Source: a virus. From it: a stretch of 64,000 nucleotides of DNA. Under the pieces are notes generated by a model that saw only the letters and a program-made list of their open reading frames with translations, had not been told where the DNA came from and made no database searches. A program made the translations under genes and the position numbers. The stretch lies in IMG/VR virus record IMGVR_UViG_3300008266_000015. The stretch is one strand, 5' to 3'. Shown piece by piece: positions 3,561-24,470 of this stretch (the first letter of the stretch is position 1; each line of letters starts with the position of its first letter).

Positions 3561-3566
3561 GCAAAT

Positions 3567-3679
3567 AGTCAGGTGGCGGAATTGGTAGACGCTCATTCTT
3601 ATGTATATGTTATAAACGCATAAGATGATAAAAATCGAGATAACAGGTAGGTTTACAGGTTCGAATCCTGTCCTGACTA
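3567..3679 (+). ncRNA. tRNA-like element t1 (113 nt, no canonical anticodon arm)
   Basis: Acceptor AGTCAGG/CCTGACT, D-arm GCGGAATTGGTAGACGC, T-arm ACAGG-TTCGAAT-CCTGT; centre is a long TCTTATG/CATAAGA hairpin plus about 27 extra nt. Confidence 0.8.
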
Positions 3680-3681
3680 CA

Positions 3682-3905
3682 ATGAGTAAGAGATACTCAG
3701 CAGACTTGTCAATGTCTCATTTAAACTTGATAGGGTATTAGACTGGACATCCTGAAACGCCAGTCTCGTGGGAATAAAGGGACAGCACAAACCCTCCCAG
3801 TAGTGTGATTTTAGAGTTCATGTGGTAAGACACTAATGGTTAGAGTTTTTAAGAAAACAAAACCGTTAAAATCCACTCACCAGTAATCTCAAGGTGGGGA
3901 AACAT
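3682..3905 (+). ncRNA. Candidate structured ncRNA B between t1 and t2
   Basis: No long ORF; successive hairpins TGAGTA/TACTCA, AGACTGG/CCAGTCT, TGGGA..AGGG/CCCT.CCCA, TAGTGT/ACACTA, AATGGTT/AACCGTT, CTCACC/GGTGGG. Confidence 0.55.
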
Positions 3906-3982
3906 AGTCAGGAGTGTAATGAGGCATGGTGCCAAGTCCTTTTAAAGGTTACTTATTACAGGTTCGAATCCTGTCCTGACTA
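3906..3982 (+). ncRNA. tRNA-like element t2 (77 nt, D-arm consensus lost)
   Basis: Same acceptor stem and T-arm; centre has GGCA/TGCC and AAGT.CCTT/AAGG..ACTT hairpins. Confidence 0.75.
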
Positions 3983-3997
3983 CTAAATAAATAAATA

Positions 3998-4855: not shown

Positions 4856-4938
4856 TCAGGTGTCTGAATTGGCTAAGTACCCTGAGCCCATCTTAGTAAT
4901 GGGTAGGGGAGATACAGGTTCGAATCCTGTCCTGACTA
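4854..4938 (+). ncRNA. tRNA-like element t3 (85 nt; 7-nt loop CT-TAG-TA on an elongated stem)
   Basis: Same acceptor and T-arm; CCCT-GA-GCCCAT-CTTAGTA-ATGGGT-AGGG hairpin; overlaps the GH16 stop codon. Confidence 0.75.
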
Positions 4939-4955
4939 CAAAAAGAATTAAAATT

Positions 4956-5171
4956 ATGAAAGGTGCAATGACATTAAAACATCGTAAAAATATTGTAAGA
5001 GAAGTGAAATCTCGTATCAGTAAAGAGATTAAGGATTACAACGATAAAGAAGTTGGACAACAAGAATCTATTCTTGATGAATATATTGAAAAAGTATGTG
5101 TTGAAAAGGGATGGGAATTAGTTCATTTTTATTGTGAAGAAGGAAAAATTTTAGATAAGATATTAAAATAG
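4956..5171 (+). CDS. Hypothetical protein (start corrected from 4860)
   Basis: ATG after an A-rich leader just downstream of t3; its TAG stop overlaps t4. Confidence 0.65.
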   Translation: MKGAMTLKHRKNIVREVKSRISKEIKDYNDKEVGQQESILDEYIEKVCVEKGWELVHFYCEEGKILDKILK

Positions 5172-5268
5172 TCAGGTGGCGGAATTGGTAGACGCAGTTA
5201 GTTATAAGCACCAATAAGACTTGTAACAACGTACCGATAGTATGCAGGTTCGAATCCTGTCCTGACTT
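5170..5268 (+). ncRNA. tRNA-like element t4 (99 nt)
   Basis: Same acceptor and D-arm as t1; GTTATAAG/CTTGTAAC stem with an 11-nt loop; GTAC/GTAT variable arm; T-stem kept by a G-U pair. Confidence 0.8.
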
Positions 5269-5282
5269 CAAAAATAAATAAT

Positions 5283-5519
5283 ATGAGACGATTAAACGAA
5301 AATGAGTATCTAATTTTAGAAAATTGGAAAAATGTTAAAATTGAAGATTGTGATTTAGGTATACAATTATGGTGTAATAATTTGGTTGGTAAGGGTATTT
5401 TGCGTAGATATAACAAACAATACATTTTAACAAAATTAGGAAAAAAACATACTGAGATTGGTAGACCAAAATTTACATGGGTACAAAATGATTGGTTCGA
5501 AAGTGTTGAGTTATTATAA
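5283..5519 (+). CDS. Hypothetical protein, possibly winged-helix-like
   Basis: LVGKGIL...YILTKLGK pattern; lies between t4 and t5. Confidence 0.6.
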   Translation: MRRLNENEYLILENWKNVKIEDCDLGIQLWCNNLVGKGILRRYNKQYILTKLGKKHTEIGRPKFTWVQNDWFESVELL

Positions 5520-5522
5520 AAT

Positions 5523-5630
5523 AGTCAGGTGGCGAAATGGTAGACGCTAGAAAGAATGTAAAACAATTGAGTAATCTCTGCCAGTATCATTCACAGGGGT
5601 TACATACAGGTTCGAATCCTGTCCTGACTA
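5523..5630 (+). ncRNA. tRNA-like element t5 (108 nt)
   Basis: Same acceptor and T-arm; D-arm GCGAAATGGTAGACGC; GTAATCTCTG/CAGGGGTTAC 10-bp stem in the centre. Confidence 0.8.
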
Positions 5631-5631
5631 C

Positions 5632-5993
5632 AAAAGGGGTTCTTTGACATAATAAGAAAGGAAAATTAATATGGAAACAATGTATTTTACTTTTGGAGTA
5701 CTAACGATGGTTGCTATGATTTTGGTTGGAGCAATTGTTTATGGTATTGTAAAGGTGTTTAAACAAGAAAAACAAATCAAAGATATCCAAAAGGATATTC
5801 AATGGAATTATAATGATATGAGTGATCGATTTAGAGATGTTTATCAGAAAATTGAAAACAGTTATGTAAATTCTAGAGACATATCTAACGCATATACAGA
5901 TATGCGGATTGATAAACTGGAAGACAAATTAACAGGAAATAGCACAAAAAAATTAATTAAAGGATAAATTTAACCCGTCGAAGAACCCTTTTT
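5632..5993. repeat. 17-bp long-range inverted repeat enclosing one gene
   Basis: AAAAGGGGTTCTTTGAC (5632-5648) pairs with GTCGAAGAACCCTTTTT (5977-5993); both mismatches are G-U. Confidence 0.75.
5671..5967 (+). CDS. Single-pass membrane protein with a coiled-coil tail
   Basis: Hydrophobic N-terminal helix followed by a charged helical region. Confidence 0.7.
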   Translation: METMYFTFGVLTMVAMILVGAIVYGIVKVFKQEKQIKDIQKDIQWNYNDMSDRFRDVYQKIENSYVNSRDISNAYTDMRIDKLEDKLTGNSTKKLIKG

Positions 5994-7654: not shown

Positions 7655-8467
7655 ATGTTAGAAAATTTGATTATTACACCTAAACGAGGTAGAGGTAGAC
7701 CAGCAAAAGACGCAACACAAACTATGTCAGCATTTAATCCTGAAGAAGTTAAACTAATCAGAGGCGAATCATTGAAATTCAATGAAGCACTATTTGTACC
7801 TTTCAAAACAGGTACCGAATTTGATCTAATTTTATCAACCGATGGTGGTTTAATGCCCGGCACATCGATGATGATTGCTGGTGGACCAGGATCAGGTAAG
7901 TCAACATTAGTAACAGATATGTTATCTAAGTTTACAAAGCAAGGTTTGAAATGCTTGTTAATACAAGGCGAAATGGATGAAATTGGGCATTACAAATATT
8001 GCCGAAGAATGCCTTCATTTGGTTGTGTTCAGACATTGTTTTTGAAAAACCACATGGATAACGTGAAAGAAACATTAGAATATGTTTTTAACTTAGGTTA
8101 CGACGTTATTGCAATTGATTCACTTGCGGAGGTATTAGCAATGTATCGCGATCAAAACGGTGGTTCAGCAAAACAAGCCGAATCATGGCTATTGAAATTA
8201 CAAGATTCAGTTAAAAAAGGAAACAACGCATTAGGTTATTATACATCGTTTGTTAATATTCAACAAATGACGAAAAGCGACGAGTTTGCGGGTTCAAACA
8301 GGTTAAAGCATATGATGGAAGCATATTGCGCAGTTGAACGTAGCAAAGATGGACTTGAACGTTCAATGCATTTCGAAAAGAATCGTGATTGCGATAAAGA
8401 TTACAAAATCTACTTTTCAATATATAAGGACGGAGTTCATTACGCTTTAAATCAAGCAGAAGAATAA
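7655..8467 (+). CDS. RecA-superfamily (RadA/Sms-like) ATPase with an N-terminal AT-hook
   Basis: GGLMPGT, Walker A GGPGSGKST, Walker B IAIDS, QMTK..FAGSNRLKHM, KNR; N-terminal KRGRGRP. Confidence 0.8.
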   Translation: MLENLIITPKRGRGRPAKDATQTMSAFNPEEVKLIRGESLKFNEALFVPFKTGTEFDLILSTDGGLMPGTSMMIAGGPGSGKSTLVTDMLSKFTKQGLKCLLIQGEMDEIGHYKYCRRMPSFGCVQTLFLKNHMDNVKETLEYVFNLGYDVIAIDSLAEVLAMYRDQNGGSAKQAESWLLKLQDSVKKGNNALGYYTSFVNIQQMTKSDEFAGSNRLKHMMEAYCAVERSKDGLERSMHFEKNRDCDKDYKIYFSIYKDGVHYALNQAEE

Positions 8468-8523
8468 AAACGGGGAGTACACGCTCCCCTTTCATATATT
8501 CAAGTAAATAAAAAAGATATATT

Positions 8524-9300
8524 ATGAAAAACCATTTCATTCCTATCGATAACAAAATCGATAAAGCAATTGCATTTGCTCAATCATTAGATAACAAATC
8601 GTTTCGTACACGAAACCGAATTAAACAACCCTCAGCATATATTGATACGCTGAGTGTTGTTCAGAATCTACAACAACAAGGTTGGGAAATAACAGGAGTA
8701 TGTGAACAACGCGGTAAAGATAGAAAAATATCAAACAACTATGTTCAATTGGAACACCCTGACTTTAAAATGATGAATAAAAACAAAGTCGAAGGTATAT
8801 CAAATATCTATGTTTCAAATAGTTGCGACGGAAGAAAACCGCTTAATTTAGATTTCGGAATGTATCGTTTAGTTTGTTCAAACGGATTGATTCAACGTAC
8901 CCCGTATATTGAACATAGAATTAAACATACACCGCAAAGTATTGAACGATTGCCAATGATTATGCAAAGTGTAAATAGCGCAGCACAAAGAGTCCTTAAA
9001 AGATTCGATTCATTAAAAACAAAGGAATTGAAACCTGCACAGCTGGAGGAACTAGTAAATAAAGCAGCACGTTTAAGATTTGACGATGACGTGATGGATG
9101 CTTCTCAACTACTCACTGTATATCGAGATGAAGATAAAGGAAACGATTTATGGTCGGTATATAACAGGATTCAAGAAAATTTAATCAAAACAAATATGTT
9201 ACTAGATCGTAACGGACGACCGTTAGCAGGAGTAAACGATGTTAAAAGCGACATTGTTTTAAATCAAGCATTATTTGGATTGATAGAAAATTATGCTTAA
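8524..9300 (+). CDS. DUF932/DUF945-family protein, paralogue 1
   Basis: NSCDG...FGMYRLVCSNGL and DLWSVYNRIQE motifs. Confidence 0.8.
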   Translation: MKNHFIPIDNKIDKAIAFAQSLDNKSFRTRNRIKQPSAYIDTLSVVQNLQQQGWEITGVCEQRGKDRKISNNYVQLEHPDFKMMNKNKVEGISNIYVSNSCDGRKPLNLDFGMYRLVCSNGLIQRTPYIEHRIKHTPQSIERLPMIMQSVNSAAQRVLKRFDSLKTKELKPAQLEELVNKAARLRFDDDVMDASQLLTVYRDEDKGNDLWSVYNRIQENLIKTNMLLDRNGRPLAGVNDVKSDIVLNQALFGLIENYA

Positions 9301-9357
9301 AAATTAGGATTACAAAATCAATTATCATATATTTAATCAAACGAAAAAATAAAAGTT

Positions 9358-10158
9358 ATGCTAGATCTAAATTCAAACACATTCCTTAGTAAGGAGCAAA
9401 TTAAATCAAAAGCAAATTCGATTTTTGCTACTAAAGGTGCTGAAAACACCTCACAACACTATTCACACATTCCAACATTCAAAATCATTGAAGATATGGA
9501 ATTGTTAGGATGGAAAGTTTCTGATGTTAAAGAGGTTAAAGCGCGTAAAAACGCTGGATTCCAAAAACATTTAGTTGTATTTCGTAATGAGGAAATTGTT
9601 ATTGATGGTAAAGATGGAGACACAGTATTTCCACAAATCCTATTAACAAATAGTTCAGACGGAAAAAATGCATTTACATTCCGTGCCGGACTTTTCCGTC
9701 TTGTATGTGAGAATGGTTTAGTTATTTCAACACAGGATTTTGCTGATTTAAAAATCAGACATATGGGTTATGACTTTGAAAAGTTACAGAAAACCATTAC
9801 CAATATTGTTGAGAAACTTCCACTCACAGTTGAGTCAATGAATCGTTTTAAAGAAACACAATTGGAGGAGGAACAAATCCTACAATTCGCTAAAGATGCA
9901 CTTACAGTACGTTTCGGTGAAGAGGAAATGGAACGCATTACAATTGATTACACTACATTTATTCAACCAACACGTAGAGAAGATGCAGGAAATGACTTAT
10001 GGTCAGTGTTTAACCGCATTCAAGAACGAGTAATGGATGGAGATTTCCAATACAGTTATGCAGCCAAAATACGTAAAGCACGTAAAATCAAGAACTTCAA
10101 TCAAGATTTAGATTTGAATTCAAGACTATATGAGTTAGCTACCACATATTGCCTATAA
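9358..10158 (+). CDS. DUF932/DUF945-family protein, paralogue 2
   Basis: YSHIPT, NSSDG...AGLFRLVCENGL, RREDAGNDLWSVFNRIQE. Confidence 0.85.
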   Translation: MLDLNSNTFLSKEQIKSKANSIFATKGAENTSQHYSHIPTFKIIEDMELLGWKVSDVKEVKARKNAGFQKHLVVFRNEEIVIDGKDGDTVFPQILLTNSSDGKNAFTFRAGLFRLVCENGLVISTQDFADLKIRHMGYDFEKLQKTITNIVEKLPLTVESMNRFKETQLEEEQILQFAKDALTVRFGEEEMERITIDYTTFIQPTRREDAGNDLWSVFNRIQERVMDGDFQYSYAAKIRKARKIKNFNQDLDLNSRLYELATTYCL

Positions 10159-10219: not shown

Positions 10220-10651
10220 ATGGAAAAAGAATTTGTACCTTATGAACAAGCATTAGCTTTAAAAGAATTAGGATTTAATGAAGAGTGTTTAACATCTTAT
10301 CATTATAATGGAACATTAATAGATATGTGGAGTGCAGTGGGTTTTGTTACAAATAGTAGTTTAATAAACCCTGAACAATTTAATGCTAATAATAATTCTA
10401 AACTTTTAAAAGATTATATTGATAATCCTTTTACAGCAGCACCAACATTCTCACAAGCATTTAGATGGTTTAGAGAGAAGTATAATTTACATGGGATAGT
10501 TTCATATTACGGAAAAAATCAATGGGATATAGAACTACTTGATTACAAAGGAAACCAATTAGTTGAAATAGAAAACAACACATTTTGGACTTATGAAGAA
10601 GCAGAACTTGCTTGTTTAAATAAACTAATTGAAATTATAAAACAGAAATAA
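10220..10651 (+). CDS. Hypothetical phage protein (MEKEFVPYE type)
   Basis: ORF behind a repeat; ALALKELGF, APTFSQAFRWFREK and TYEEAELACL blocks. Confidence 0.7.
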   Translation: MEKEFVPYEQALALKELGFNEECLTSYHYNGTLIDMWSAVGFVTNSSLINPEQFNANNNSKLLKDYIDNPFTAAPTFSQAFRWFREKYNLHGIVSYYGKNQWDIELLDYKGNQLVEIENNTFWTYEEAELACLNKLIEIIKQK

Positions 10652-10982: not shown

Positions 10983-11317
10983 TGAGCGGAGGAGCATTTG
11001 ATTATAATCAATCTCGCATTCAATATATAATTGAAGGCATTGAAGAGGAAATTGAAAAAAATGGAAAGAAAATCGACTACGAACCGGGATACAAAAGATA
11101 TGAATGGGAATCAGAATACCATTACGAATATCCACCTGACATTATTGAGGAATTTAAAAATGGAATACGCATACTAAAACAAGCATATGTCTATGCTCAG
11201 CGAATTGATTGGCTACTATCAGGAGATGATAGAGAAGATTCATTTCGTAAACGATTGAAAGAGGATTTAGCACAATTAAACCCACCTACTTTTTGGGGTG
11301 AAGAAAGCGGATACTAG
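10982..11317 (+). CDS. Hypothetical phage protein
   Basis: Coupled ORF (MSGGAFDY start); stop lies in repeat 11315. Confidence 0.7.
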   Translation: MSGGAFDYNQSRIQYIIEGIEEEIEKNGKKIDYEPGYKRYEWESEYHYEYPPDIIEEFKNGIRILKQAYVYAQRIDWLLSGDDREDSFRKRLKEDLAQLNPPTFWGEESGY

Positions 11318-11360
11318 GATTACAAAATCTTTAGTTGTATATTTAGGTAAATAAAAAATT

Positions 11361-11726
11361 ATGGAAAGAATAGAAATTAATGGAGTATGGTATGTTAAAG
11401 AAGATACCATACAAAAAGAAAGTACTATATTAGAGCCTACTCATTTTGAAGGATACTCTGTAGAAAATGATGATTTTATTTTTGAAGCAACTATTATATT
11501 TAAAGATGATGGTACTCCTTATTATGGTATTACTATTGAATGTACTGATAAAAGATTCCCAGATAGGAATAATTGGAAAGTAGAACATTGGGATAATGAT
11601 AATTGGTTAAGAGGTATATTAAACAATAATCCTGATTCATGGAAAGAATTACCTGAAATGAGTAGTGGAGATATTCATTTTTTACAAACATTTTTACAAT
11701 ATTTAAAAGATAAAGAATGGTTATGA
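11361..11726 (+). CDS. Hypothetical protein
   Basis: Behind repeat 11315. Confidence 0.7.
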   Translation: MERIEINGVWYVKEDTIQKESTILEPTHFEGYSVENDDFIFEATIIFKDDGTPYYGITIECTDKRFPDRNNWKVEHWDNDNWLRGILNNNPDSWKELPEMSSGDIHFLQTFLQYLKDKEWL

Positions 11727-11971
11727 AAGAAACACTTGAAGAAGCTGCTGAAAAGTATGCTAAACAATTTGATTATGCAGAAGATTCTTCACCACCAATA
11801 GATTTTGTTGAAGGTGCTAAATGGCAACAAGAAAGAATGTATAGTGAGGAAGAAGTATTAGAGTTATTACTAAAACATCAATCTGATTATAGGAGTTCCG
11901 TAAGAAATACATCTCCTTTGGATTGGAGTTTTGATATTAAAGATTGGTTTGAACAATTTAAAAAGAAATAA
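11723..11971 (+). CDS. ETLEEAA-family modular protein, copy 1
   Basis: MKETLEEAA / EGAKWQQERMYSE / FEQFKKK blocks shared with 13452 and 19186. Confidence 0.8.
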   Translation: MKETLEEAAEKYAKQFDYAEDSSPPIDFVEGAKWQQERMYSEEEVLELLLKHQSDYRSSVRNTSPLDWSFDIKDWFEQFKKK

Positions 11972-11972
11972 A

Positions 11973-12185
11973 ATGGGAAATCTAAAACAAAAACTTACCA
12001 CTGAGGAATGGGACGAATTAATAATCTATACTAAACCAGGATTTGTTGAAAAACGGATTGAATTATCTATTCAAGAGGCAGCAGAAAAATACACATCAAC
12101 ATCTTTTAACAAACAAGATCTGTATGATGGGTTTATAGCTGGAGCAAAATGGATGATGGAAAACATTAAAACAAACTCAAAATGA
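11973..12185 (+). CDS. Hypothetical protein with a degenerate EAAEKY/FIAGAKW module (start corrected)
   Basis: C-terminal similarity to the ETLEEAA family. Confidence 0.65.
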   Translation: MGNLKQKLTTEEWDELIIYTKPGFVEKRIELSIQEAAEKYTSTSFNKQDLYDGFIAGAKWMMENIKTNSK

Positions 12186-12481
12186 CAGCAGACGAATTCA
12201 ACACCAAATATAAAGACTATTTAGAGGAAGGACATTACGGACTAGATATAGACATTCCATCCATAACTAAATATCTAGATGAAATATTTCAGGGCCTAAT
12301 TAAAATACCTGGATTTCAATATTCACAAATAAAAGATAAATACTCTAATTGTAGATTCTATACTAACTTACTTGAGGTATTAGGACATAAATTAGGAGCA
12401 ATTGTATCAAATGAGGTGGAACGTAGAGTTTCTATGATGATGGAAGTATATTATGATCACTTAAATTATAAGAAAGATTAG
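12182..12481 (+). CDS. Hypothetical phage protein
   Basis: ATGA coupling; QIKDKY..CRFY motif; stop lies in a repeat. Confidence 0.7.
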   Translation: MTADEFNTKYKDYLEEGHYGLDIDIPSITKYLDEIFQGLIKIPGFQYSQIKDKYSNCRFYTNLLEVLGHKLGAIVSNEVERRVSMMMEVYYDHLNYKKD

Positions 12482-12523
12482 GAATGCAAAATCTTTAATT
12501 GTATATTTAAAATAAAAAAGGTT

Positions 12524-12787
12524 ATGAACGATTGGTCAGCATTTAATGTAAAGTATTTAGCGGTACCATTTACTATGTTGGTATTTGGTGTAGTAATAGG
12601 ATTTGGTATATCCGATTCCAAAAAGAAACCAACTAAAAAATACCCAATAGAAGTACAAACTCATTGGTCAACAGATCAAGGTGCATCTTATCCAATTATG
12701 GAAGCAGATAGTGTTATAGGTGATACTATATACAAAGATGGTATTAGTATAGTAAATAAAAACATTTTAAATATAACATTTAAATGA
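12524..12787 (+). CDS. Membrane-anchored hypothetical protein
   Basis: N-terminal hydrophobic helix. Confidence 0.65.
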   Translation: MNDWSAFNVKYLAVPFTMLVFGVVIGFGISDSKKKPTKKYPIEVQTHWSTDQGASYPIMEADSVIGDTIYKDGISIVNKNILNITFK

Positions 12788-13455
12788 AAAACATACACGT
12801 AATAAACCAAAACATCTACATCACTAATGATGAAGAAATTAAAGAAGGGGATTGGGTTATTTATAAAAATAAAGTTTTTAAGATAGGAATAGGTGATAAT
12901 GAACTTTTTCATTTAAGTAAAAAAATCATCCTAACAACAGACCAAGATTTAATCAAAGATGGTGTACAAGCTATTGAAGATGATTTTCTTGAATGGTTTG
13001 TCCAAAATCCAAGTTGTGAGGAGGTTGAAGTACAATGCAGATATAATTTTTATGCAGGTCAAGATTTAACACATTACAAAATAATCATTCCAAAAGAATC
13101 TAAACTAATTAATAACTGTCCTAAGTGTGGTTTAGATTTAATCATAAGAGAACATTGTACACCAATTTGTACAGATATTGATTGCCGTGGTATTATACTT
13201 AGTAATGAAACATTAAGAGAATGGGCATCAAAAAAAGAATCTAAACAAGAAACACTTGAAGAAGCAATGGAAAGTTATTTAGATTCTCCTACGCCCCACT
13301 CATACAAAAGAGCAGTAAAATTTGGTGCTAATTGGCAACAAAAACAGATATTAGAATTTCTTTATTTAGAAATAACAGAACGTAGAGATTATTCAGCATC
13401 TAAAATGTGTGAAAAGGTAATAGAGTTTATTGAACAATTAAATACTAAGAAATGA
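12784..13455 (+). CDS. Mosaic hypothetical protein with a Zn-ribbon insert and a C-terminal ETLEEA module
   Basis: CPKC..C..C insert flanked by KESK; ends KQETLEEA...FGANWQQ. Confidence 0.7.
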   Translation: MKNIHVINQNIYITNDEEIKEGDWVIYKNKVFKIGIGDNELFHLSKKIILTTDQDLIKDGVQAIEDDFLEWFVQNPSCEEVEVQCRYNFYAGQDLTHYKIIIPKESKLINNCPKCGLDLIIREHCTPICTDIDCRGIILSNETLREWASKKESKQETLEEAMESYLDSPTPHSYKRAVKFGANWQQKQILEFLYLEITERRDYSASKMCEKVIEFIEQLNTKK

Positions 13456-13715
13456 AAGAAACACTTGAAGAAGCTGCTGCTAGACATTTTAATAAAGAAG
13501 ATTTAGTTGAAGGTGTTAATATTCAATATGTACTTCAATGTGCTTTTATTGAAGGTGCTAAATGGCAACAAGAAAGAATGTATAGTGAGGCAATTGAGTT
13601 TGCTGAGTGGATTAGAATTAAAGATTTCCAAACTGCATCTAAAGATAATTGGATTGGTTTAGATATGAAATACTTTACAACAGAAGAATTGTTTGAACAA
13701 TTTAAAAAGAAATAA
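13452..13715 (+). CDS. ETLEEAA-family modular protein, copy 2
   Basis: Shared constant blocks. Confidence 0.8.
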   Translation: MKETLEEAAARHFNKEDLVEGVNIQYVLQCAFIEGAKWQQERMYSEAIEFAEWIRIKDFQTASKDNWIGLDMKYFTTEELFEQFKKK

Positions 13716-13716
13716 T

Positions 13717-13914
13717 ATGAAGCAAACAGCAGTTGAGTGGTTGGTTGAAAGTTTAACGGAATTAGGTGTTGATTTATTAAGTCATAACTTAGAGATTCAA
13801 CAAGCCAAAGCAATGGAGAAGGAGCAGCATCAGCAAACTGCAGCACACTTTTTTCCTACATCATTAAAGAAAGAAGATTTTGAACAATATTATACAGAAA
13901 CTTATGAAAAATGA
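13717..13914 (+). CDS. Hypothetical phage protein, MKQTAVEWL type (start corrected)
   Basis: Coupled to both neighbours. Confidence 0.7.
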   Translation: MKQTAVEWLVESLTELGVDLLSHNLEIQQAKAMEKEQHQQTAAHFFPTSLKKEDFEQYYTETYEK

Positions 13915-14114
13915 ACATAGGACAGGAAAGAATAATAAAGAAATACGCTTGGTTACCAACTTGGGTTTGGGTTGGGAAACAAGGAAATAAAGATAAGTGG
14001 ATTTGGTTGAGACCATTTTACGAAAAACAAAAATATGTTAAGTGGAATGATTGGCAGGAAGGTGTGGGAGACCATTGGAAGACAAGTTGGAAATGTGAAC
14101 GTCAATATATTTAA
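13911..14114 (+). CDS. Trp-rich hypothetical protein
   Basis: ATGA coupling. Confidence 0.6.
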   Translation: MNIGQERIIKKYAWLPTWVWVGKQGNKDKWIWLRPFYEKQKYVKWNDWQEGVGDHWKTSWKCERQYI

Positions 14115-14132
14115 AATTATAACAAATAAACT

Positions 14133-14498
14133 ATGGCAATATTCGGAAGTAGTTGGAAAGAAGATAGTGAAGACGAAATCAATATGTTTTCACATTGGAA
14201 AGATGATGAAGATGACTCTGGTCCTGAACCAAACGAGGCACTAAAAGTAGCTAAAGAAAGATATGATGCAATGCTTGATGCTAAACCACCTTACGTAAGT
14301 GATGATTTTCAAATTGGACCTGATGGTGCATATGAGGATGTAAGTGATTGGGATATAACATTAATGGATGGAATTGAGTACGAAAGTTGGGATGAAATAT
14401 ATGAAGACTATGTTGGTGAGGCAGATCTACACGAGTTTTTACAATGGCTAAAGGAAAATTTTCAAGTACCTAATAAACTAGGACCACAAAATTCTTAA
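14133..14498 (+). CDS. Very acidic hypothetical protein
   Basis: D/E-rich; DDFQIGPDGAYE. Confidence 0.7.
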   Translation: MAIFGSSWKEDSEDEINMFSHWKDDEDDSGPEPNEALKVAKERYDAMLDAKPPYVSDDFQIGPDGAYEDVSDWDITLMDGIEYESWDEIYEDYVGEADLHEFLQWLKENFQVPNKLGPQNS

Positions 14499-14522
14499 TT
14501 GTATATTTAAAATAAAAAAGTT

Positions 14523-14777
14523 ATGATATTTACAGGCAAATCAGCAGATGGTTCAGATGCAAAGGAAGTTGAAGGTATGTATATGCATCCCGATGGAGAA
14601 CAATGGTCAAATCAACCATGGATCATAACAAAAGAGGACAAAATGTATTGGGAAATACGTGACCATATTGATGGTAAACGATCACTACAAGACGAATACG
14701 ATTTAGTTAAAGCAAAGAAATCCACATTAAGTAGAGCACTACGTGATTTTTTAATTAAATTTATGGATGAGGGTTAA
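14523..14777 (+). CDS. Hypothetical protein
   Basis: Single-gene cassette between repeats. Confidence 0.7.
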   Translation: MIFTGKSADGSDAKEVEGMYMHPDGEQWSNQPWIITKEDKMYWEIRDHIDGKRSLQDEYDLVKAKKSTLSRALRDFLIKFMDEG

Positions 14778-14825
14778 TTAGGATTACAAAACCTTTAATT
14801 GTATATTTAAATAAAAATAAGAGTT

Positions 14826-15456
14826 ATGACGCCAAAAGAAAAAGCAGATGAATTATTTAGAAAAATGTATCAAGTACGTTCTGTAGCGGCAAGTGATATT
14901 ACTAAACATTTTGCAAAACAAAGTGCATTAATTGCAGTTGATGAGATTATAAAAGAATATGGAACATATTTCAAAGTAGAAGTAGAAGGTAAATATGTAT
15001 CTTATTGGCAACAAGTTAAACAAGAAATTGAGAAACTATGACACCAAAAGAAAAAGCAGATGATTTACTGAAGAAAATGCTAGGTAAAAATCCAAACATC
15101 CAAGACGGAGTTTCAGCCATAGATACTATACAAGCTAAACTATGCGCTTTAGTAGCAGTTGATGAAATAATGAGCACCACTGATGCGGAAGACCATATTA
15201 TTTTGTATAACTATTGGCAAAAAGTAAGAAATGAAATTGAGAAACTATGACACCAAAAGAAAAAGCAGAACAATTAGTACACACATACCGAATGCTATTT
15301 ATGGATGTTGGGGGCGATTATGGGGAGGAAATACTAGTGTCTGTATTATCTAAACAGTGTGCTTTAATAGCAGTTAAAGAAATAAGATACACCCATTACG
15401 ATGCAATAACTACAATGTGGTGGAATGATGTAGAACAAGAAATAAATAAGTTATGA
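14826..15456 (+). CDS. Three tandem MTPKEKA-family genes (14826-15041, 15038-15250, 15247-15456)
   Basis: Shared MTPKEKA / ALIAVDEI / W..V..EI.KL blocks; ATGA overlaps. Confidence 0.8.
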
Positions 15457-16130
15457 AAATCTGGCATATAAGTGACACACACACCTACCACGGACTATTA
15501 AATATTCCAAAGGATATTGATATGGTTATTCATTCAGGTGACTGTTCTAATCCACAAGATATAGTTAAGTCCCATAGTGAGATTTTAGAGTTTATAAATT
15601 GGTTTGCTTTGCTACCTATTAAATATAAAATATTTGTAGCTGGAAACCACGATGTTGCTATTGAACGCAAATGGATTACTAGAGACCATTTCATTGAAAA
15701 GGATATAGTGTATCTTGAAAACGAATCAATTACAATTGATGGTATCAATATATGGGGTTCTCCATTTACACCTTCGTTTGGTGAAGGTTGGGCATTCAAT
15801 AAAAAGAGAGACAAACTACACAACTTGTGGGCTACTATTCCTGATGATACAAATGTAGTAGTGGTTCATGGTCCACCTAAAGGTATTTTAGATCTATCAT
15901 ATGATACAACAAATAAACTAGAATTCTGTGGATGTAATGCATTTAAAAAACGAATGCTTCAATTACAACCTGAACTGTGTTTGTTTGGGCATATTCACAA
16001 CTGTGAAGATATAATTAATGCAGGCACAACTAAATTATCAGCATATAAAACAGTATATTCAAATGGTTCAGTAGTGACTGATGGTAAATTTGGTAAATTA
16101 AGTTCAAACGGAAATATATTAGAAATATGA
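15453..16130 (+). CDS. Calcineurin-like metallophosphoesterase
   Basis: SDTH, HSGD, GNHD, HGPP and GHIH motifs. Confidence 0.9.
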   Translation: MKIWHISDTHTYHGLLNIPKDIDMVIHSGDCSNPQDIVKSHSEILEFINWFALLPIKYKIFVAGNHDVAIERKWITRDHFIEKDIVYLENESITIDGINIWGSPFTPSFGEGWAFNKKRDKLHNLWATIPDDTNVVVVHGPPKGILDLSYDTTNKLEFCGCNAFKKRMLQLQPELCLFGHIHNCEDIINAGTTKLSAYKTVYSNGSVVTDGKFGKLSSNGNILEI

Positions 16131-16342
16131 AAGTAAAACAACTAATAGAACACTTACAAACACTTGATCCTGAATTATATGTATTTAGACCTGGATATGA
16201 AGCTGGTTTAGAGGATATAAAGGATACTAGTAGTGTAGTTCATGTTGAATTGGATTATAACAAAGAATGGTATTATGGACCACATGAACAAGTATTAAGT
16301 CCTGAAATATTTCCAAACGCAGTAAAAGGAATAGTATTATAG
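16127..16342 (+). CDS. Hypothetical protein (MKVKQLIEHL family)
   Basis: N-terminus similar to 16399 and 22796. Confidence 0.7.
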   Translation: MKVKQLIEHLQTLDPELYVFRPGYEAGLEDIKDTSSVVHVELDYNKEWYYGPHEQVLSPEIFPNAVKGIVL

Positions 16343-16398
16343 ACTAGGACTACAAAATCTTTTAACATATATTTAAACAACTTAAAAAAATAAAGGTT

Positions 16399-16614
16399 AT
16401 GACGGTACAAGAATTAAAAGAAATACTTGATGAAATGAACCCAGATATGGAAGTAAAATTTTCATACAGTTATGGAGACTATTGGCGAACCCAAGTAGCA
16501 GCAAACATTTCAGATGTCGATTATGGGTATGTAAGTTATAGTGACTACCACCAAATGGATAAGGTATCTGAAGATGAAAATGAAGATACTAAGTATGTAG
16601 TTTTACTAAGTTAA
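16399..16614 (+). CDS. Hypothetical protein (MTVQELKEIL)
   Basis: Single-gene cassette. Confidence 0.7.
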   Translation: MTVQELKEILDEMNPDMEVKFSYSYGDYWRTQVAANISDVDYGYVSYSDYHQMDKVSEDENEDTKYVVLLS

Positions 16615-16673
16615 TTTGTTAGGATTACAAAATCTGTTAATGTATATTTAATCAACTTAAAAAAATAAAGGTT

Positions 16674-16898
16674 ATGAACGGATTAACACAATCAGAATTC
16701 GAAATTTTGCTTAAACTAAAGCAACTAAAACAAAACAAAAAGTACATTGCTTTAAAACTACACCCTCCAATTGGAAACAGTACCATTCAGAAAGAAAACA
16801 ATCGGATGTTTATCAATGAAGGCCGAGATGGAAAATGGGAAGACATCTCAGAGAGTTTCTATGATATAGTAGTAGGAATTTACGATTCACGTTCTTAA
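16674..16898 (+). CDS. Hypothetical protein
   Basis: Behind repeat 16620. Confidence 0.65.
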   Translation: MNGLTQSEFEILLKLKQLKQNKKYIALKLHPPIGNSTIQKENNRMFINEGRDGKWEDISESFYDIVVGIYDSRS

Positions 16899-16910
16899 AA
16901 AATAAAGGTT

Positions 16911-17234
16911 ATGGCAACACGTAGTTACATTGGAAAACGTCTTGAAGACGGAAAAATTCGTTACATTTATTGTCACTTTGATGGATATCCATCACACAAT
17001 GGAGAAATCCTAACTGAATATTATACAACAGAAGACAAAGTCACTGATTTACTTGATTTAGGAGATATGAGTAGTTTAGAGCCATCTCTTTCAGAATGTA
17101 AAGTATATGATGATGGAAATGTTGCGATTGGAGATATGAGTGATTTTCTTGATGGGAATGTTTCATATTACTATTTGTTTGAAAATAATGAATGGCAATG
17201 TTTTGATTATAAAGGAGATCAAGTAACTCTCTAG
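16911..17234 (+). CDS. Hypothetical phage protein (MATRS...YCHFDGYP type)
   Basis: Recognisable HxDGYP motif; stop lies in a repeat. Confidence 0.75.
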   Translation: MATRSYIGKRLEDGKIRYIYCHFDGYPSHNGEILTEYYTTEDKVTDLLDLGDMSSLEPSLSECKVYDDGNVAIGDMSDFLDGNVSYYYLFENNEWQCFDYKGDQVTL

Positions 17235-17285
17235 GATTACAAGATTTACAAACGTATATTTAATCAACTTAAAAAAATAAAAGTT

Positions 17286-18478
17286 ATGAAAAACGAAAAA
17301 ACAGAACGCATTGAAAGTCTTATAGATCTATCAGCACTTGCTTGGTTCAATACAGCAGCAAACACAATTGTTGTGGATATGATGAATGAAGGATGGGAGT
17401 ATAGTGATGCAAGAGAATATCTATTTGATAAAATTGATGAAATCATTGAAGCACATAAAAGACAAGATCGATTGGAAAATAAATTCTCCCCACTAATTGG
17501 AAAAAAATGTATTGTAATTGATGAGGTAATAGAGAAAAATAATGTAAAAATACATACAATTAGTGGAATTGGAGAAAATGGTGGATTGTGTTTTGAAGAT
17601 TACAATGGGGAAACTATTTTTTGTTTTGAATATGATGAAGACTTATTTGTAGAAGGATACAAAGCATGGATTCATCCAGATGAAGTATCTATTCAACTAA
17701 TAGATTAGGATTACAAAGTTTACGTTCATTTATTTAAATAAAAAAATAAAGGTTATGAAAAAAACATCTCAATCAATAGATGGAACATCGTTCCACAATG
17801 TAGTAGTTAAATGTTCATTATCAACCCTAACAAAAGTATTAGGCAATCCCGATTGTTCAGGAAATGATGGTGAGAATAAGATCAATTTTGAATGGGAAAT
17901 GGAAACAAATGACGGAGATGTATTTACAGTATATGACTGGAAGGAATATAGATCATTGAATGAAAATGAACTAATCGAATGGCACATTGGTGGAACAAGT
18001 AGGAGTATAACTGAACAAGCCGCTCGTGAAATTAGGGATGCAATAGCAAAAATCTAAAGTGTTAGGATTACAAGATTTATAAACGTATATTTAATCAACT
18101 TAAAAAACATAACTTATGACTGAATTAGAAAATTTAAAAATCGAGCTATTTAATCTTGTTGAACGTGTTAGTGCGCTATCAACTAAAAATGAAGGAACAT
18201 TTTCATTCACAAAAGAACAACTACTAAGCTATTCAAAGTTTCTAATTGATGAAGCGGTTGAAAGCATAACAACCGGTATTAAAAATGATATAACTGAAGA
18301 TTCGTTAGATGAAGTAATTGAATTAGAAATGGGTTATAATAGAGATATACGAGTTACAATTGATGAAAGAGGATTCCATAGCCAAATAGTTTCAGTGATT
18401 GAAGATTCAGTTGATTCAAACATAGAGGATTCAGTTGCTAGCGCTTTGGAACATGTGTTTCCAACCACTCAAGATTAA
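17286..18478 (+). CDS. Three single-gene cassettes, hypothetical (17286-17708, 17755-18057, 18116-18478)
   Basis: Each is preceded by the promoter repeat and an A-rich leader. Confidence 0.7.
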
Positions 18479-18535
18479 AATAAATAAAAGGGTAGTTCAT
18501 TAGGACTACCCTATTTTTATTTGTATATTTACAGT

Positions 18536-18954
18536 ATGAAAGAAGATAAGAAGATAAATGGATTAAGTGAACGTCACATTGCACAAATAGTACGACGTAA
18601 AATGATTCAACGCTTCAAACCATCAGCAAAAGTATATAAACGCAACAAAAACAAAAACACAGAGCTATGAGACAACTAATCGGAAAATTTGAAGTAGTGG
18701 ATTCAATGGGGAATCTTAAGACACTAAAAGTATTTACAAACCGCGAAGAAGGTACTGTGGGGTTCTCCTTAACATCCAAATCAGGGACTTCGTTTTCAAT
18801 CAGCAATATGCAATGTGGATGGAGAGGACCACACCTACCTGATAACACATATGAATATCCAACTAACAAAGCACTAATGAAAGCAGTGAAAGAGGCTGTA
18901 AATGGAGGTGTTTGTAAAGTACAAGAAGAGAAATTATTTATTGATGTAATTTAA
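18536..18954 (+). CDS. Small basic 44-aa ORF (18536-18670, not in track) coupled to hypothetical 18667-18954
   Basis: ATG behind repeat 18501; ATGA overlap. Confidence 0.6.
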
Positions 18955-19185
18955 AAATAATGGTTATGAAAGAATTAATGTATAACCCAAGTACTGGTGA
19001 TTTATTAGCAACTAAAGCTAAAACAGATGGGAAAGTGTATCAAAGTTACTTAACTAAAGGATATATTAAAATTGGTTGGGTTGATGGGTTTAATGTAGTG
19101 GTTGGAGGAATTGGAGTTAAATTATAATTTATTAGGATTACAAGTTAAATTAATGTATATTCAATTAACTTAAAAAATAAAGATT

Positions 19186-19425
19186 ATGAAAGAAACACTT
19201 GAAGAAGCTGCTGAAGAATTTATAAAAGGTTGGGGTGGTTTAACTGACTCTAAAAATTCATTTATTGAAGGTGCTAAATGGCAAGCTGAAAGAATGTATA
19301 GTGAGGAAGATTTAATTAGTTTTGCACACTTTTATTTCACAGAAGAATTTAATTCAACAATGCAAACTTCTAAATCAACAGATAAAATTTTACAAGAATG
19401 GTTTGAACAATTTAAAAAGAAATAA
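19186..19425 (+). CDS. ETLEEAA-family modular protein, copy 3
   Basis: Shared constant blocks. Confidence 0.8.
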   Translation: MKETLEEAAEEFIKGWGGLTDSKNSFIEGAKWQAERMYSEEDLISFAHFYFTEEFNSTMQTSKSTDKILQEWFEQFKKK

Positions 19426-19426
19426 T

Positions 19427-20493
19427 ATGAAAGTATTTAGATTTACAACAGAGGTACAATCCATTAAAACAATACAATATATTATTGAAGCTGAAAATAA
19501 AGAAGAAGCAGCTAAAATACTCCAAAGCGGAAGTGAACGTGATGAAGGTGAAGAGATTGATGAAGATATCTATTGGGGAACAGAAACAATTATAGAAAGT
19601 AAACTAATTGAGGAACTATGAACGAACTAAAAATACATGGCTACTATCAGTGGTCCAATGCTTGTGGTTATGGAGTGATCCTTTCCGATTGTGGAGACTC
19701 AGCAAAGCTGGTACTTGAAAATCAATCAACAACTGATTGGTTAGAAATTGAATATGTTTTTAACGAGGACACTGATGGATTTGATCCAATCATTGATCCA
19801 AGTAGATACAACGTGCCTTTAAATTTGGTAATGCGAGCTTACTAGGACTACAAAGTTTATTACTGTATATTTAAACAACTTAAAAAACGTAAAAAGATGA
19901 AAAAATCAAATTCAAGTGTGTTTGTAAACACAACTATTACGAAACAATTCCCTAACGGACCAAAAGTAACTGCTGAATTTCAAACCATTGTTTGTTTGAA
20001 TAAAAGTGATGATTGGGTTATTGATTGTATTGAGCCAATGGATATTAATGAAATTGAAATGATGGGAAAAACAATCACCGATTATGAAAATAAACGTAAT
20101 ATAATTGAACATTTCAAATTAATGGGAGTTGATTTATGGGACGAAGTTGAAACGGATATGCAGAAAATCATTGATGCGAATAGTGATGCAGTTACGTTTG
20201 TAAAAGAACAAACCGGAATTATATTACCAACAAAACAAAGCAAACCAAATGATGTTGTTGAATTAACAAGACAGGAATTGGAATATGTAATAATTATGAA
20301 TGATCTAAAACAGCAATTCGGTTCATTAGGTTACTACAACGATAAACGAAAAACAACACGTCGCATCAAGATATATTCAGGTCCAAAAGAAGCAATTCAA
20401 AGATACATGTATAAAAAATATCCACATATCAAAACATATTTCAATGTTGGATATCCATGGTCAAGTGGATTATGTTTTAGGTTACCACTTTGA
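19427..20493 (+). CDS. Hypothetical genes 19427-19621 (start corrected), 19618-19845 and 19897-20493
   Basis: Coupled or repeat-preceded ORFs. Confidence 0.7.
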
Positions 20494-23873: not shown

Positions 23874-23950
23874 GAATACAAAAAATACGTTCGTATATTT
23901 ATCTCATAAGAAAAGCATTTAAAAACGTTTAATTAATTGATTAAGCATAT

Positions 23951-24023
23951 AGTCAGGTGGCGGAATGGATGGGCAACGTCAACTAATTAATAGATACAGG
24001 TTCGAATCCTGTCCTGACTACCA
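23951..24023 (+). ncRNA. tRNA-like element t6 (73 nt, encoded CCA, truncated anticodon arm)
   Basis: Same acceptor and T-arm, ends ACCA; only 16 nt between D-arm and T-arm; behind repeat 23871. Confidence 0.8.
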
Positions 24024-24470
24024 AATGTTGGCTGAAAAGTTAGGCTTTTGTTTCTATATAGGGAAGATGACTAAGAAACAGGAACTAGAGTCTATTAGAG
24101 GTACAATCATCAGTATATCTCTTACAACATTATATAGTTCTTTGCATTTTTACTTACCTTCACCATATGTATAATGGAACACAAAAGGGATCCTCACAGT
24201 AGGACAACGAGAAGTGAATGCTAGTCAGGACTGCTCTCAACCAAGTAGTGCTCAAAAACGCGCTCTTTACACATATTAGTTACAACAAAAGCATTAATGC
24301 ACCCGGAGTAATATACCGGTTTTTAAATTTTGACAAAAATGTTCCCGCCTCTAGTCGACCCAATTAGATGAGCAAATAACATGAGTTAATGATACAGCAA
24401 AACAATGTGAGTTAAATTTATACATAAAGCTGGTTGATAATTAGGTTGACTGGCTACCTTACTGTTCAAA
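24024..24470 (+). ncRNA. Candidate structured non-coding region C
   Basis: No credible ORF; AATGTTG/CAACATT, AGAGGTA/TATCTCT, CCGG/CCGG and AGTCGACCCAATTA/TAATTAGGTTGACT helices. Confidence 0.4.

What the first reader, a model, noticed from the sequence alone, without database searches (positions are those of the whole stretch)
11723..19425. ETLEEAA genes: DNA-identical constant blocks alternating with unrelated variable segments
Seen: the genes at 11723, 13452 and 19186 share an identical 28-bp start ATGAAAGAAACACTTGAAGAAGCTGCTG. They also share a near-identical ~45-bp middle (TTGAAGGTGCTAAATGGCAA...GAAAGAATGTATAGTGAGG) and the end GTTTGAACAATTTAAAAAGAAATAA, including synonymous sites. The two intervening segments differ in length and sequence. 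Fragments of the blocks also occur inside 12784-13455 and 11973-12185. Inference: a C-V-C-V-C scaffold diversified by recombination at the constant blocks, i.e. a combinatorial library of small binders such as anti-defence proteins. It mirrors the design of the tRNA-like RNAs.
Basis: partly seen in the sequence, partly recalled or inferred. Interest (0 to 1): 0.7.

Follow-up and report, generated by a model that had tools for sequence, protein, structure and literature searches.

The report
Phage mix-and-match small protein family
Three small early genes of a freshwater Bacteroidota phage belong to a very large, undescribed family in which two variable protein cassettes are swapped between phages at short junctions kept almost identical at the DNA level; what the proteins do is still unknown.

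Summary
Genes 11723, 13452 and 19186 share an identical 28-nt start, a 47-nt middle block (98% and 89% identical) and an identical 25-nt end. The segments between the blocks are unrelated.

This holds across a whole family, not just these paralogues. At least 5,354 clusters (50% identity) exist in metagenomes. Almost all are viral, and none matches Pfam or a PHROG of known function.

In 105 viral genes found with a codon-blind pattern, the blocks keep the same codons, including rare ones:
- Ser AGT: 94% in the block, 30% background.
- Glu GAG: 86% versus 13-26%.
- Leu CTT: 76% versus 14-19%.

Block dS is 0.23 even between genes with unrelated cassettes. It is 0.55-0.60 inside related cassettes, which are under purifying selection (dN/dS about 0.2).

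V1 and V2 reassort almost freely. One V2 type occurs with 36 V1 types, and nine four-gamete squares are present. Mosaic breakpoints fall at the blocks.

The best reading is sub-genic cassette shuffling by homologous recombination at in-frame junctions, as in T-even gp38 and PeSL cassettes. The N and M blocks are predicted to form a homodimer interface. The anti-defence "binder library" idea remains untested.

First-stage readers noted the same design in two other genomes of this scan.

The parts
11723..11971 (+). Family gene 1 (82 aa). N block 11723-11750, V1, M block 11803-11849, V2, C block 11945-11971. Its ATG overlaps the upstream gene's TGA (ATGA). The next gene's ATG lies 1 nt after its TAA.
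   Evidence: the identical protein sits in an identical 11-kb stretch in contigs from three other metagenome samples
13452..13715 (+). Family gene 2 (87 aa). N block 13452-13479, M block 13544-13590, C block 13690-13715. Its ATG overlaps the stop of 12784-13455. Its V2 recurs at 89-93% nt identity in L012 and L089 behind two unrelated V1 segments.
19186..19425 (+). Family gene 3 (79 aa). N block 19186-19213, M block 19260-19306, C block 19400-19425. It has its own promoter repeat directly upstream. Its V2 type was found with 21 different V1 types.
12784..13455 (+). Fused member (223 aa). It has an N-terminal beta domain (PHROG 15656, function unknown), a zinc-ribbon-like module, then a degenerate family module from about 13225 (KQETLEEAM ... 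GANWQQ ... FIEQLNTKK).
   Evidence: relatives with the same upstream modules but other cassettes
11973..12185 (+). Gene with the first module only (SIQEAAEKY ... GFIAGAKW, then it ends). The protein motifs are kept but written in different codons, so it serves as an internal control.
11311..11359 (+). Promoter-like repeat (TAGGATTACAA-N-GTATATTTA) heading the operon that holds gene 1.
   Evidence: family D3, 29 copies
12475..12523 (+). Promoter-like repeat heading the operon that holds 12784-13455 and gene 2.
   Evidence: D3
19129..19177 (+). Promoter-like repeat directly upstream of gene 3.

Best explanation
The three genes belong to a very large, unannotated family of small modular proteins. 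The family is encoded in the multi-promoter (probably early) region of myoviruses that most likely infect freshwater Bacteroidota. Each protein joins two cassettes. D1 runs from the ETLEEAA helix through the V1 loop to the GAKWQ helix. D2 runs from MYSEE(E/D) through V2 to WFEQFKKK. The three junction blocks are kept nearly identical at the nucleotide level across thousands of otherwise unrelated genes.

Shown here: the cassettes are stable units under purifying selection; they reassort almost freely among phages; mosaic breakpoints fall at the blocks; the blocks have far lower synonymous divergence than the cassettes they flank.

Inferred: homologous recombination between co-infecting phages or between paralogues uses the 25-47-nt blocks as in-frame crossover sites, and repeated exchange keeps them homogeneous. 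Phage recombination enzymes would probably carry this out. The genome holds a RecA-fold core ATPase and two PD-(D/E)XK nucleases. The C block also doubles as the A-rich, unstructured translation leader of the next gene, whose ATG follows the stop by 1 nt.

Predicted: the N and M blocks form a symmetric homodimer interface, which leaves V1 and V2 as the variable surfaces.

The function is unknown. The most likely role is binding of variable host targets during takeover or counter-defence.
For: Family size and range: 3,139 similar-length hits and 432 longer hits; 5,354 representatives at E<=1e-3 and 1,730 at E<=1e-10. More than 116 viral contigs carry the M block, against 3 MAG contigs among 185,579 species genomes.

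Codon conservation in 105 unique viral genes found with a fully codon-degenerate pattern: GCT 98% (background 43-46%), AGT 94% (29-30%), second Glu GAG 86% (13-26%), Leu CTT 76% (14-19%), middle Lys AAG 100% (13-28%). The chance of the consensus M-block codons given the amino acids is 0.0037, yet 64 of 101 genes have them exactly.

Synonymous divergence: codon differences are 0.278 in V1 against 0.122 (N) and 0.094 (M) for same-V1 pairs, and 0.169 in V2 against 0.073 (M) for same-V2 pairs; the chance baseline is 0.29-0.32. NG86 dS of the blocks is 0.23 over 658 pairs with unrelated cassettes, against 0.55-0.60 inside related cassettes with dN/dS 0.18-0.25.

Reassortment: 16 of 18 multi-member V1 clusters pair with two or more V2 clusters, and 12 of 15 multi-member V2 clusters pair with two or more V1 clusters. 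In 295 unique genes, the g11723-type V2 has 36 V1 partners, the g19186-type has 21, and nine pairs of V1 clusters show all four combinations.

Breakpoints: g13452, L089 and L012:3980-4255 are 33-47% identical across V1 and 80-97% from the M block to the stop. L012 holds a tandem array of five members with swapped cassettes.

Other junctions are also DNA-conserved: KIIIP is mostly AAA ATC ATC ATT CCA (14-19 of 19 per codon) and EEPKQE is GAA GAA CCT AAA CAA GAA (20-21 of 21 per codon).

The same motifs are written in other codons in 11973-12185, so the protein does not require these codons.

Surrounding genes of the same contigs match at only 69-86% or not at all, while the blocks match at 90-100%.

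Identical recombinant combinations were assembled independently from different metagenomes, for example L004/L022 and L002/L080.

Homodimer prediction: ipSAE 0.45, best of 3 controls 0.00. That mark was reached by 20 of 30 proteins solved as pairs of one chain and by 1 of 23 solved as single chains. These counts hold only roughly because my own alignment was used. The runs agree in at least 56% of contacts, and the partner's pLDDT is at least 64. The interface comprises L5, A8, A9, Y12, residues 27-36, 39-42, and helix 3.

The AF2 monomer has four helices, with pLDDT 82 and pTM 0.62.

The published precedent is recombination between conserved motifs that swaps segments in gp38 (PMC3157838, which cites Tetart 1998) and between PeSL cassettes (PMC2839356).
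Against: No recombination event was observed directly; everything is inferred from assembled sequences. Short shared blocks could in principle create assembly chimeras. Against that, the blocks are shorter than typical reads, and the same combinations recur in independent assemblies.

Low dS could partly reflect nucleotide-level constraints. The C block overlaps the next gene's translation leader, and the N block covers the first codons of many genes.

The codon-bias baseline is already high in this AT-rich group: about 70% of chance-identical residues share a codon.

The dimer is a prediction only.

No function, fold relative or known domain was found.

Within-genome homogenisation is seen in this phage (0 of 77 codon differences) but not in L012 (11 of 97).
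Confidence: 0.7

Rival explanations
1. The blocks are conserved at the DNA level mainly because the nucleotides themselves have a function. Candidates are a translation leader and stop-start coupling for the next gene (C block), start-proximal codon constraints (N block), or an internal start at the ATG of ERMYSEE (M block). Under this view, cassette exchange is an incidental by-product.
For: In all three genes the next ATG follows the stop by 1 nt (AAAAAGAAATAAnATG). This C block resembles the leader AACTTAAAAAAnAAAnnTTATG behind the promoter repeats. The region is unstructured, with dG -2 to -5 kcal/mol. Bacteroidia use A-rich Kozak-like leaders instead of Shine-Dalgarno sequences (PMC6847099). 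The AAG in KKK breaks what would otherwise be a 9-A run. Proteins with D2 only, or starting near the M-block ATG, exist (P0116; P0332).
Against: The N block keeps the same codons when it is internal, after EEPKQ in fused proteins. The M block is internal and shows no RNA structure, with z -0.5 to +0.9. Other internal junctions (KIIIP, EEPKQE) are equally codon-fixed. This rival does not explain why breakpoints coincide with the blocks or why reassortment is near-random.
Confidence: 0.15
2. A dedicated enzyme drives the exchange. A homing-type endonuclease or site-specific recombinase would recognise a block and trigger localised gene conversion, or a retroelement would copy cassettes.
For: The genome encodes a SegE-like GIY-YIG endonuclease, a T5orf172/MUG113 protein and two PD-(D/E)XK nucleases. 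Block conservation of 25-47 nt is in the size range of endonuclease recognition sites (this point is from general knowledge).
Against: No link between these genes and the family was found. No reverse transcriptase or integrase appears among the 25 Pfam families listed for 84 ORFs of the genome, although 41 families matched, so this is not exhaustive. Cassettes differ in length and are conserved units, unlike DGR mutagenesis. At least five different junction sequences are involved, which fits general homology better than one recognition site.
Confidence: 0.07
3. This is an ordinary family of diverged paralogues with conserved motifs. The DNA identity comes from AT-rich codon bias, and the apparent reassortment comes from metagenome assembly chimeras.
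For: Codon bias alone makes about 70% of chance-identical residues share a codon. All comparative data are metagenome assemblies.
Against: The fixed codons include rare ones (GAG, CTT, AGT, AAG, ATC) at 76-100%. The consensus M-block encoding has probability 0.0037 but is seen in 64 of 101 genes. Block dS is 0.23 against 0.55-0.60 in related cassettes. Identical recombinant combinations recur in different metagenomes. This genome's own region is 100% identical in three independent assemblies.
Confidence: 0.03

Closest known systems
gp38 tail-fibre adhesin of T2/T6-type phages (glycine-rich motifs alternating with hypervariable segments)
   Same: The design is an in-frame C-V-C-V-C layout. Short conserved motifs form the structural core and separate variable segments, and recombination between the conserved motifs swaps segments (PMC3157838, which cites Tetart et al. 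1998).
   Different: There is no sequence or fold relation. The proteins here are about 80-aa helical proteins in the multi-promoter (probably early) region, not virion adhesins. The variable parts are whole cassettes, including a helix. The family is far larger and also links to further upstream modules.
PeSL (promoter-early stem-loop) cassettes of T4-type phages
   Same: Short conserved DNA elements flank small non-essential genes in hyperplastic regions and mediate modular shuffling by recombination (PMC2839356, PMC4122927). This window also has about 30 promoter repeats between its small genes.
   Different: PeSLs are intergenic regulatory elements that swap whole genes. The blocks here are coding, in frame, and swap parts of genes.
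Polymorphic toxins with a conserved demarcation motif (CdiA VENN, Rhs PxxxxDPxGL); cited from general knowledge
   Same: A conserved junction peptide and its DNA precede a highly variable C-terminal cassette that is exchanged by recombination.
   Different: No such motifs, no toxin or immunity pair, and no secretion domain are present. The proteins here are phage-encoded and very small. This comparison was not tested beyond the negative Pfam scans.
Relaxed homologous recombination by phage recombinases
   Same: Phage recombinases can generate mosaics through short or diverged homologies (PMC3945230).
   Different: That work concerns temperate phages and prophages and whole-gene mosaics. No recombinase activity was tested here. 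The candidate at 7655-8467 is only a RecA-fold/KaiC-like ATPase by Pfam.

Membership tests
Any Pfam or PHROG family of known function | A significant profile match | tested here: not met
   No Pfam hit reaches its threshold for the three genes, and there are only weak PHROG hits of unknown function. Of 150 longer relatives, one hits TacA1, one hits DUF7833, and 40 hit phrog_15656, which has no known function.
gp38-type adhesin (GRM/HVS) | Glycine-rich conserved motifs, homology to gp38, and a location in the tail-fibre locus | tested here: not met
   The blocks are helical and not glycine-rich. No homology was found. The genes lie among promoter-repeat small genes, upstream of the baseplate genes at 37 kb.
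gp38-type adhesin (GRM/HVS) | Conserved motifs alternate with variable segments that are exchanged by recombination | tested here: met
   It works like gp38 but is not a member.
PeSL regulatory cassette | An intergenic sigma-70-like promoter plus a terminator stem-loop | tested here: not met
   The blocks are inside coding sequence and show no stable structure. Separate promoter repeats do exist.
Diversity-generating retroelement target | A template/variable repeat pair of equal length with adenine-specific differences, plus a reverse transcriptase | tested here: not met
   The V segments differ in length, are unrelated, and evolve under purifying selection. No RT appears among the listed Pfam families of the genome, but that list is incomplete.
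Homodimeric scaffold protein | Self-association through the conserved blocks | tested here: inconclusive
   This is a prediction only: ipSAE 0.45 against a best control of 0.00, with the interface on the N and M blocks. No experiment was done.
Anti-defence protein | Demonstrated inhibition of a defence system, or homology to a known inhibitor | not testable with these tools
   The only lead is one fused relative (P0229) with a TacA-antitoxin-like segment, E 1.3e-5.
T4 internal-protein-type capsid targeting sequence (cited from memory) | An N-terminal leader of about 10 aa that is cleaved by the prohead protease, with the protein packaged in the head | not tested
   The resemblance is loose (MKETLEEAAE). 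The N block is often internal in fused proteins, which argues against a role as an N-terminal signal.

The most novel reading that the evidence does not exclude
The junction blocks are selected recombination signals of a phage 'repertoire' system. This would be a population-wide, in-frame cassette-exchange grammar with at least five junction types: KIIIP, EEPKQE, ETLEEAA, GAKWQxERMYSEE and WFEQFKKK-stop-start. It would let Bacteroidota phages assemble combinatorial libraries of homo- or heterodimeric small proteins whose variable faces neutralise diverse host defence or toxin systems.
Probability: 0.2. Interest if true: 0.85.

Novelty: new variant of a known kind. Interest (0 to 1): 0.65.

Why it matters
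Phage genomes are mosaics, but clear cases where exchange happens inside genes at defined, DNA-conserved, in-frame junctions are few. The gp38 adhesin is the classic one. This case involves thousands of variants of an unannotated small-protein family. It has several junction types and clean quantitative signatures: fixed rare codons, low block dS, positive four-gamete tests and sharp breakpoints. That gives a tractable natural system for three questions. How short can homologies be and still drive sub-genic shuffling? Are such junctions selected for evolvability? What do these abundant 'dark' phage genes do? If the cassettes turn out to be target-binding surfaces on a common dimer core, the family would be a natural combinatorial binder library.

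Tried and rejected
- GenBank phages: megablast of 11000-20000 and tblastn of g11723 and of the 223-aa protein found nothing.
- Nearest cultured relative: Flavobacterium phage immuto, 48% aa identity in the baseplate protein. It has no family member by profile search of its whole genome.
It was replaced by the degenerate DNA pattern.
- Fold searches of the 82-aa model gave only generic helical-hairpin matches: Foldseek PDB with no E<=0.001, the atlas, and VIA wide with best Z 5.1.
- Fold searches of the 223-aa model gave the same: Foldseek none, VIA best Z 6.1, on the helical C-terminus only. The N-terminal beta domain was not searched on its own.
- The ESM Atlas feature search gave only unnamed viral clusters.
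- RNA structure in the M-block and C/N-junction regions: z-scores -0.5 to +1.0, so no support. Rfam found only two tRNA-like matches elsewhere in the window.
- No further copies of the motifs occur in the 41 kb of the genome outside the window.
- Tandem C-block to N-block adjacency is not universal. By eye it is present in roughly 10 of the 45 upstream regions printed (of 51 stand-alone genes); my strict regex caught only 2.
- Near-identical genomes from other samples (L117-L119) showed no variation in this region, so they gave no population-level information.


Full report
**Setting**

The window is bases 35030-99029 of a single 104,954-bp viral contig with about 30% G+C. Nearly all genes are on the + strand. 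The genome encodes a T4-type terminase, family B DNA polymerase, GroEL-like chaperonin, baseplate proteins, two PD-(D/E)XK nucleases and a SegE-like GIY-YIG endonuclease. The closest cultured relative is the myovirus Flavobacterium phage vB_FspM_immuto, at 48% aa identity in the baseplate wedge protein. The few cellular-genome hits to the family are contigs in freshwater Bacteroidetes or Sphingobacteriales MAGs. One relative is labelled Chitinophagaceae. The host is therefore probably a freshwater member of the Bacteroidota.

The region from 2.5 to 28 kb is a run of small genes separated by about 30 copies of a promoter-like repeat, TAGGATTACAA-N12-GTATATTTAA followed by an A-rich leader.

**The observation**

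The 28-nt start occurs exactly three times, against 0 expected. The 47-nt middle block is 98% and 89% identical between copies. The last 25 nt are identical in all three genes. Within the blocks, all 77 comparable codons in the three pairwise comparisons are the same codon. The segments between the blocks differ in length and do not align.

Two further genes carry parts of the design:
- The C-terminal third of 12784-13455 has the N block at DNA level and degenerate M and C blocks.
- The gene 11973-12185 has the N and M protein motifs written in different codons, and it ends right after GAKW.

No other copies lie elsewhere in the genome.

The same 11-kb region is 100% identical in contigs from three other metagenome samples. 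The genes are therefore not an assembly accident.

**A very large, unannotated, essentially viral family**

- Pfam and PHROGs give nothing meaningful.
- A word-indexed search found 3,139 proteins of similar length at E<=0.01, and 432 longer ones at E<=0.001.
- An exhaustive profile search of 1.84 billion 50%-identity representatives found 5,354 at E<=1e-3 and 1,730 at E<=1e-10. The module almost always sits at the C-terminus.
It hit only 3 contigs in one genome each of 185,579 prokaryote species.
- No GenBank phage has the family.
- No paper in the searchable library contains the motifs in this context.

**Conservation at the DNA level**

The pattern allowed every synonymous codon, so codon choice in the hits is unbiased by the search. 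In 105 unique genes the M block is almost always GGT GCT AAA TGG CAA nnn GAA AGA ATG TAT AGT GAG.

| Residue | Fixed codon | In block | Background |
|---|---|---|---|
| Ala (M block) | GCT | 98% | 43-46% |
| Ser (M block) | AGT | 94% | 29-30% |
| Second Glu (M block) | GAG | 86% | 13-26% |
| Leu (ETLEEAA) | CTT | 76% | 14-19% |
| Middle Lys (KKK) | AAG | 100% | 13-28% |

The N and C blocks were not used for the search, yet they show the same effect. With the codon usage of the same genes' V segments, the consensus M-block encoding has probability 0.0037. It is seen exactly in 64 of 101 genes.

Synonymous-codon differences in gene pairs that share a V1 type:
- V1: 0.278, close to the chance baseline of 0.29-0.32.
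- N block: 0.122.
- M block: 0.094.

In pairs that share a V2 type, the values are 0.169 in V2 and 0.073 in M.

NG86 estimates give dS 0.23 for the concatenated blocks over 658 pairs whose cassettes are unrelated. Within related cassettes dS is 0.55-0.60, and these evolve under purifying selection with dN/dS 0.18-0.25.

Other genes on the same contigs match the window at 69-86% or not at all, while the blocks match at 90-100%. The D1-only gene 11973-12185 writes the same motifs in other codons, so the protein does not demand the fixed codons.

**Reassortment**

- Among 108 genes there are 84 V1 and 86 V2 clusters at 60% identity.
- 16 of 18 multi-member V1 clusters occur with two or more V2 clusters.
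- 12 of 15 multi-member V2 clusters occur with two or more V1 clusters.
- With 295 unique genes, the V2 type of g11723 occurs with 36 V1 types and that of g19186 with 21.
- Nine pairs of V1 types show all four combinations.

Breakpoints are sharp. g13452, an L089 gene and L012:3980-4255 are 33-47% identical through V1 and 80-97% identical from the M block to the stop.

L012 is a 115.7-kb viral contig from the same sample as one copy of this genome. It carries a tandem array of five members in which:
- the V2 of g13452 follows a different V1;
- the V2 of g11723 follows a non-family N-terminus.

Identical recombinant combinations recur in contigs from different metagenomes, for example L004/L022 and L002/L080. 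This argues against assembly chimeras. Read-level confirmation is still missing.

**A wider module grammar**

Nearly half of the viral members are fused behind other modules. These include an N-terminal beta domain (MKNIH...IKEGDW...FLEWFVKNPSCE, PHROG 15656), small Cys-rich zinc-ribbon-like modules and other segments. The modules are joined by further junctions whose codons are likewise fixed. KIIIP is AAA ATC ATC ATT CCA, and EEPKQE is GAA GAA CCT AAA CAA GAA with CCT in 21 of 21 cases. Modules can be duplicated or interrupted exactly at the junctions, as in P0057, P0071, P0147, P0148 and P0175. D2 also occurs behind unrelated N-termini, as in P0058 and P0085. The unit of exchange is therefore the cassette, and the protein is best read as D1 plus D2.

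**Protein level**

AlphaFold2 models g11723 as four helices, with pLDDT 82 and pTM 0.62:
- residues 5-14: N block;
- residues 24-38: M block;
- residues 42-60: start of V2;
- residues 72-79: C block.

No fold relative was found.

A homodimer prediction passed its controls. The ipSAE was 0.45, against 0.00 for the best of 3 controls. That mark was reached by 20 of 30 proteins solved as pairs of one chain and by 1 of 23 solved as single chains. These counts hold only roughly, because my own alignment was used. The runs agree in at least 56% of contacts, and the partner's pLDDT is at least 64. The interface consists of L5, A8, A9 and Y12 (N block), residues 27-36 and 39-42 (M block), and the inner face of helix 3. 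So the constant blocks are predicted to be the dimer core. This gives a protein-level reason for their amino-acid conservation. It also raises the possibility of heterodimers among paralogues. It is a prediction, not a measurement.

**Nucleotide-level roles**

In all three genes the next gene's ATG follows the TAA by 1 nt (AAAAAGAAATAAnATG). In two of the three, the family gene's own ATG overlaps the upstream stop as ATGA. The C block resembles the A-rich leader behind the promoter repeats and is unstructured. This fits the Kozak-like, Shine-Dalgarno-independent initiation of Bacteroidia (PMC6847099). Part of the C-block conservation is therefore probably dual coding. It does not explain the internal M, KIIIP and EEPKQE junctions.

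**Mechanism**

The simplest account is homologous recombination at the 25-47-nt blocks between co-infecting relatives or between paralogues, with repeated exchange keeping the blocks homogeneous. This is the principle described for the glycine-rich motifs of gp38 (PMC3157838) and the PeSL cassettes of T4-type phages (PMC2839356, PMC4122927). It is compatible with relaxed recombination by phage enzymes (PMC3945230). The phage has candidate enzymes: a RecA-fold/KaiC-like ATPase at 7655-8467 and two PD-(D/E)XK nucleases. No link between them and the family was shown.

The complete identity of the blocks within this genome (0 of 77 codon differences, about 10 expected at the family-wide rate) suggests recent intragenomic conversion or recent common origin. 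L012 does not show this, with 11 of 97 differences.

**Function**

Function is unknown. The genes lie in a many-promoter small-gene region typical of host-takeover genes, and the diversity suggests variable targets. One fused relative contains a segment matching the toxin-neutralising C-terminal part of the TacA antitoxin (E 1.3e-5, above Pfam's cut-off), and L041 has a similar segment. This is a lead for an anti-toxin or anti-defence role and nothing more.

**Verdict**

The binder or anti-defence function is open. I rate it a new variant of a known kind (motif-mediated sub-genic shuffling) in a new, very large family.

First-stage readers noted the same design in two other genomes of this scan (e1-5713759 and e1-5328314). 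I did not examine those genomes.

Noticed in passing
window 14826-15456: Three tandem genes of about 70 aa (MTPKEKA...EIEKL) share a conserved end-stop/start-beginning junction, GAAATTGAGAAACTATGACACCAAAAGAAAAAGCAGA (family D14). Homologous junction pieces occur in L093 and L086. This is a second family with the same junction-conserved design.
   Followed up: partly
window 2486-28186: About 30 copies of a promoter-like repeat, TAGGATTACAA-N12-GTATATTTAA followed by an A-rich leader, stand before small genes (families D2-D9). Its TAG often serves as the previous gene's stop codon.
   Followed up: partly
window 3561-5646 and 23945-24036: Six repeated elements have tRNA-like ends: GTCAGGTGGCGGAAT at the 5' end and CAGGTTCGAATCCTGTCCTGACTAC at the 3' end (D12/D18/D20). 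ARAGORN calls only tRNA-Leu(TAA) at 3906-3983. Rfam tRNA matches 5170-5268 and 23951-24020.
   Followed up: no
window 491-1405 (inside ORF 300-1670): A 42-nt (14-aa) tandem repeat of about 15 or more copies lies in a 456-aa protein that matches phrog_25468.
   Followed up: no
P0229 residues 206-239; L041 family ORF: A module in fused relatives matches the C-terminal, toxin-neutralising part of the TacA1 antitoxin, PF08681 (E 1.3e-5, 25.5 bits against a cut-off of 21). L041 has a similar DIEIFIDGIVNPAEPNQALIDAAKNH segment.
   Followed up: partly
L012 3228-5674: Five family genes lie in a tandem array, each ...FKKK-stop followed directly by the next ATG, in a 115.7-kb viral contig. Its cassettes are shared with this window at 82-89% nt identity but in other combinations.
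   Followed up: yes
window 7655-10158: A RecA-fold/KaiC-like ATPase with an N-terminal AT-hook-like motif (weak Pfam hit) is followed by two DUF932 paralogues, each behind its own promoter repeat.
   Followed up: partly
window 10220-10651: The ORF MEKEFVPYEQALALKELGF... has homologues next to family genes in several viral contigs (L065, L066, L070, L073, L091) at 69-97% nt identity in patches. It has no Pfam match.
   Followed up: no
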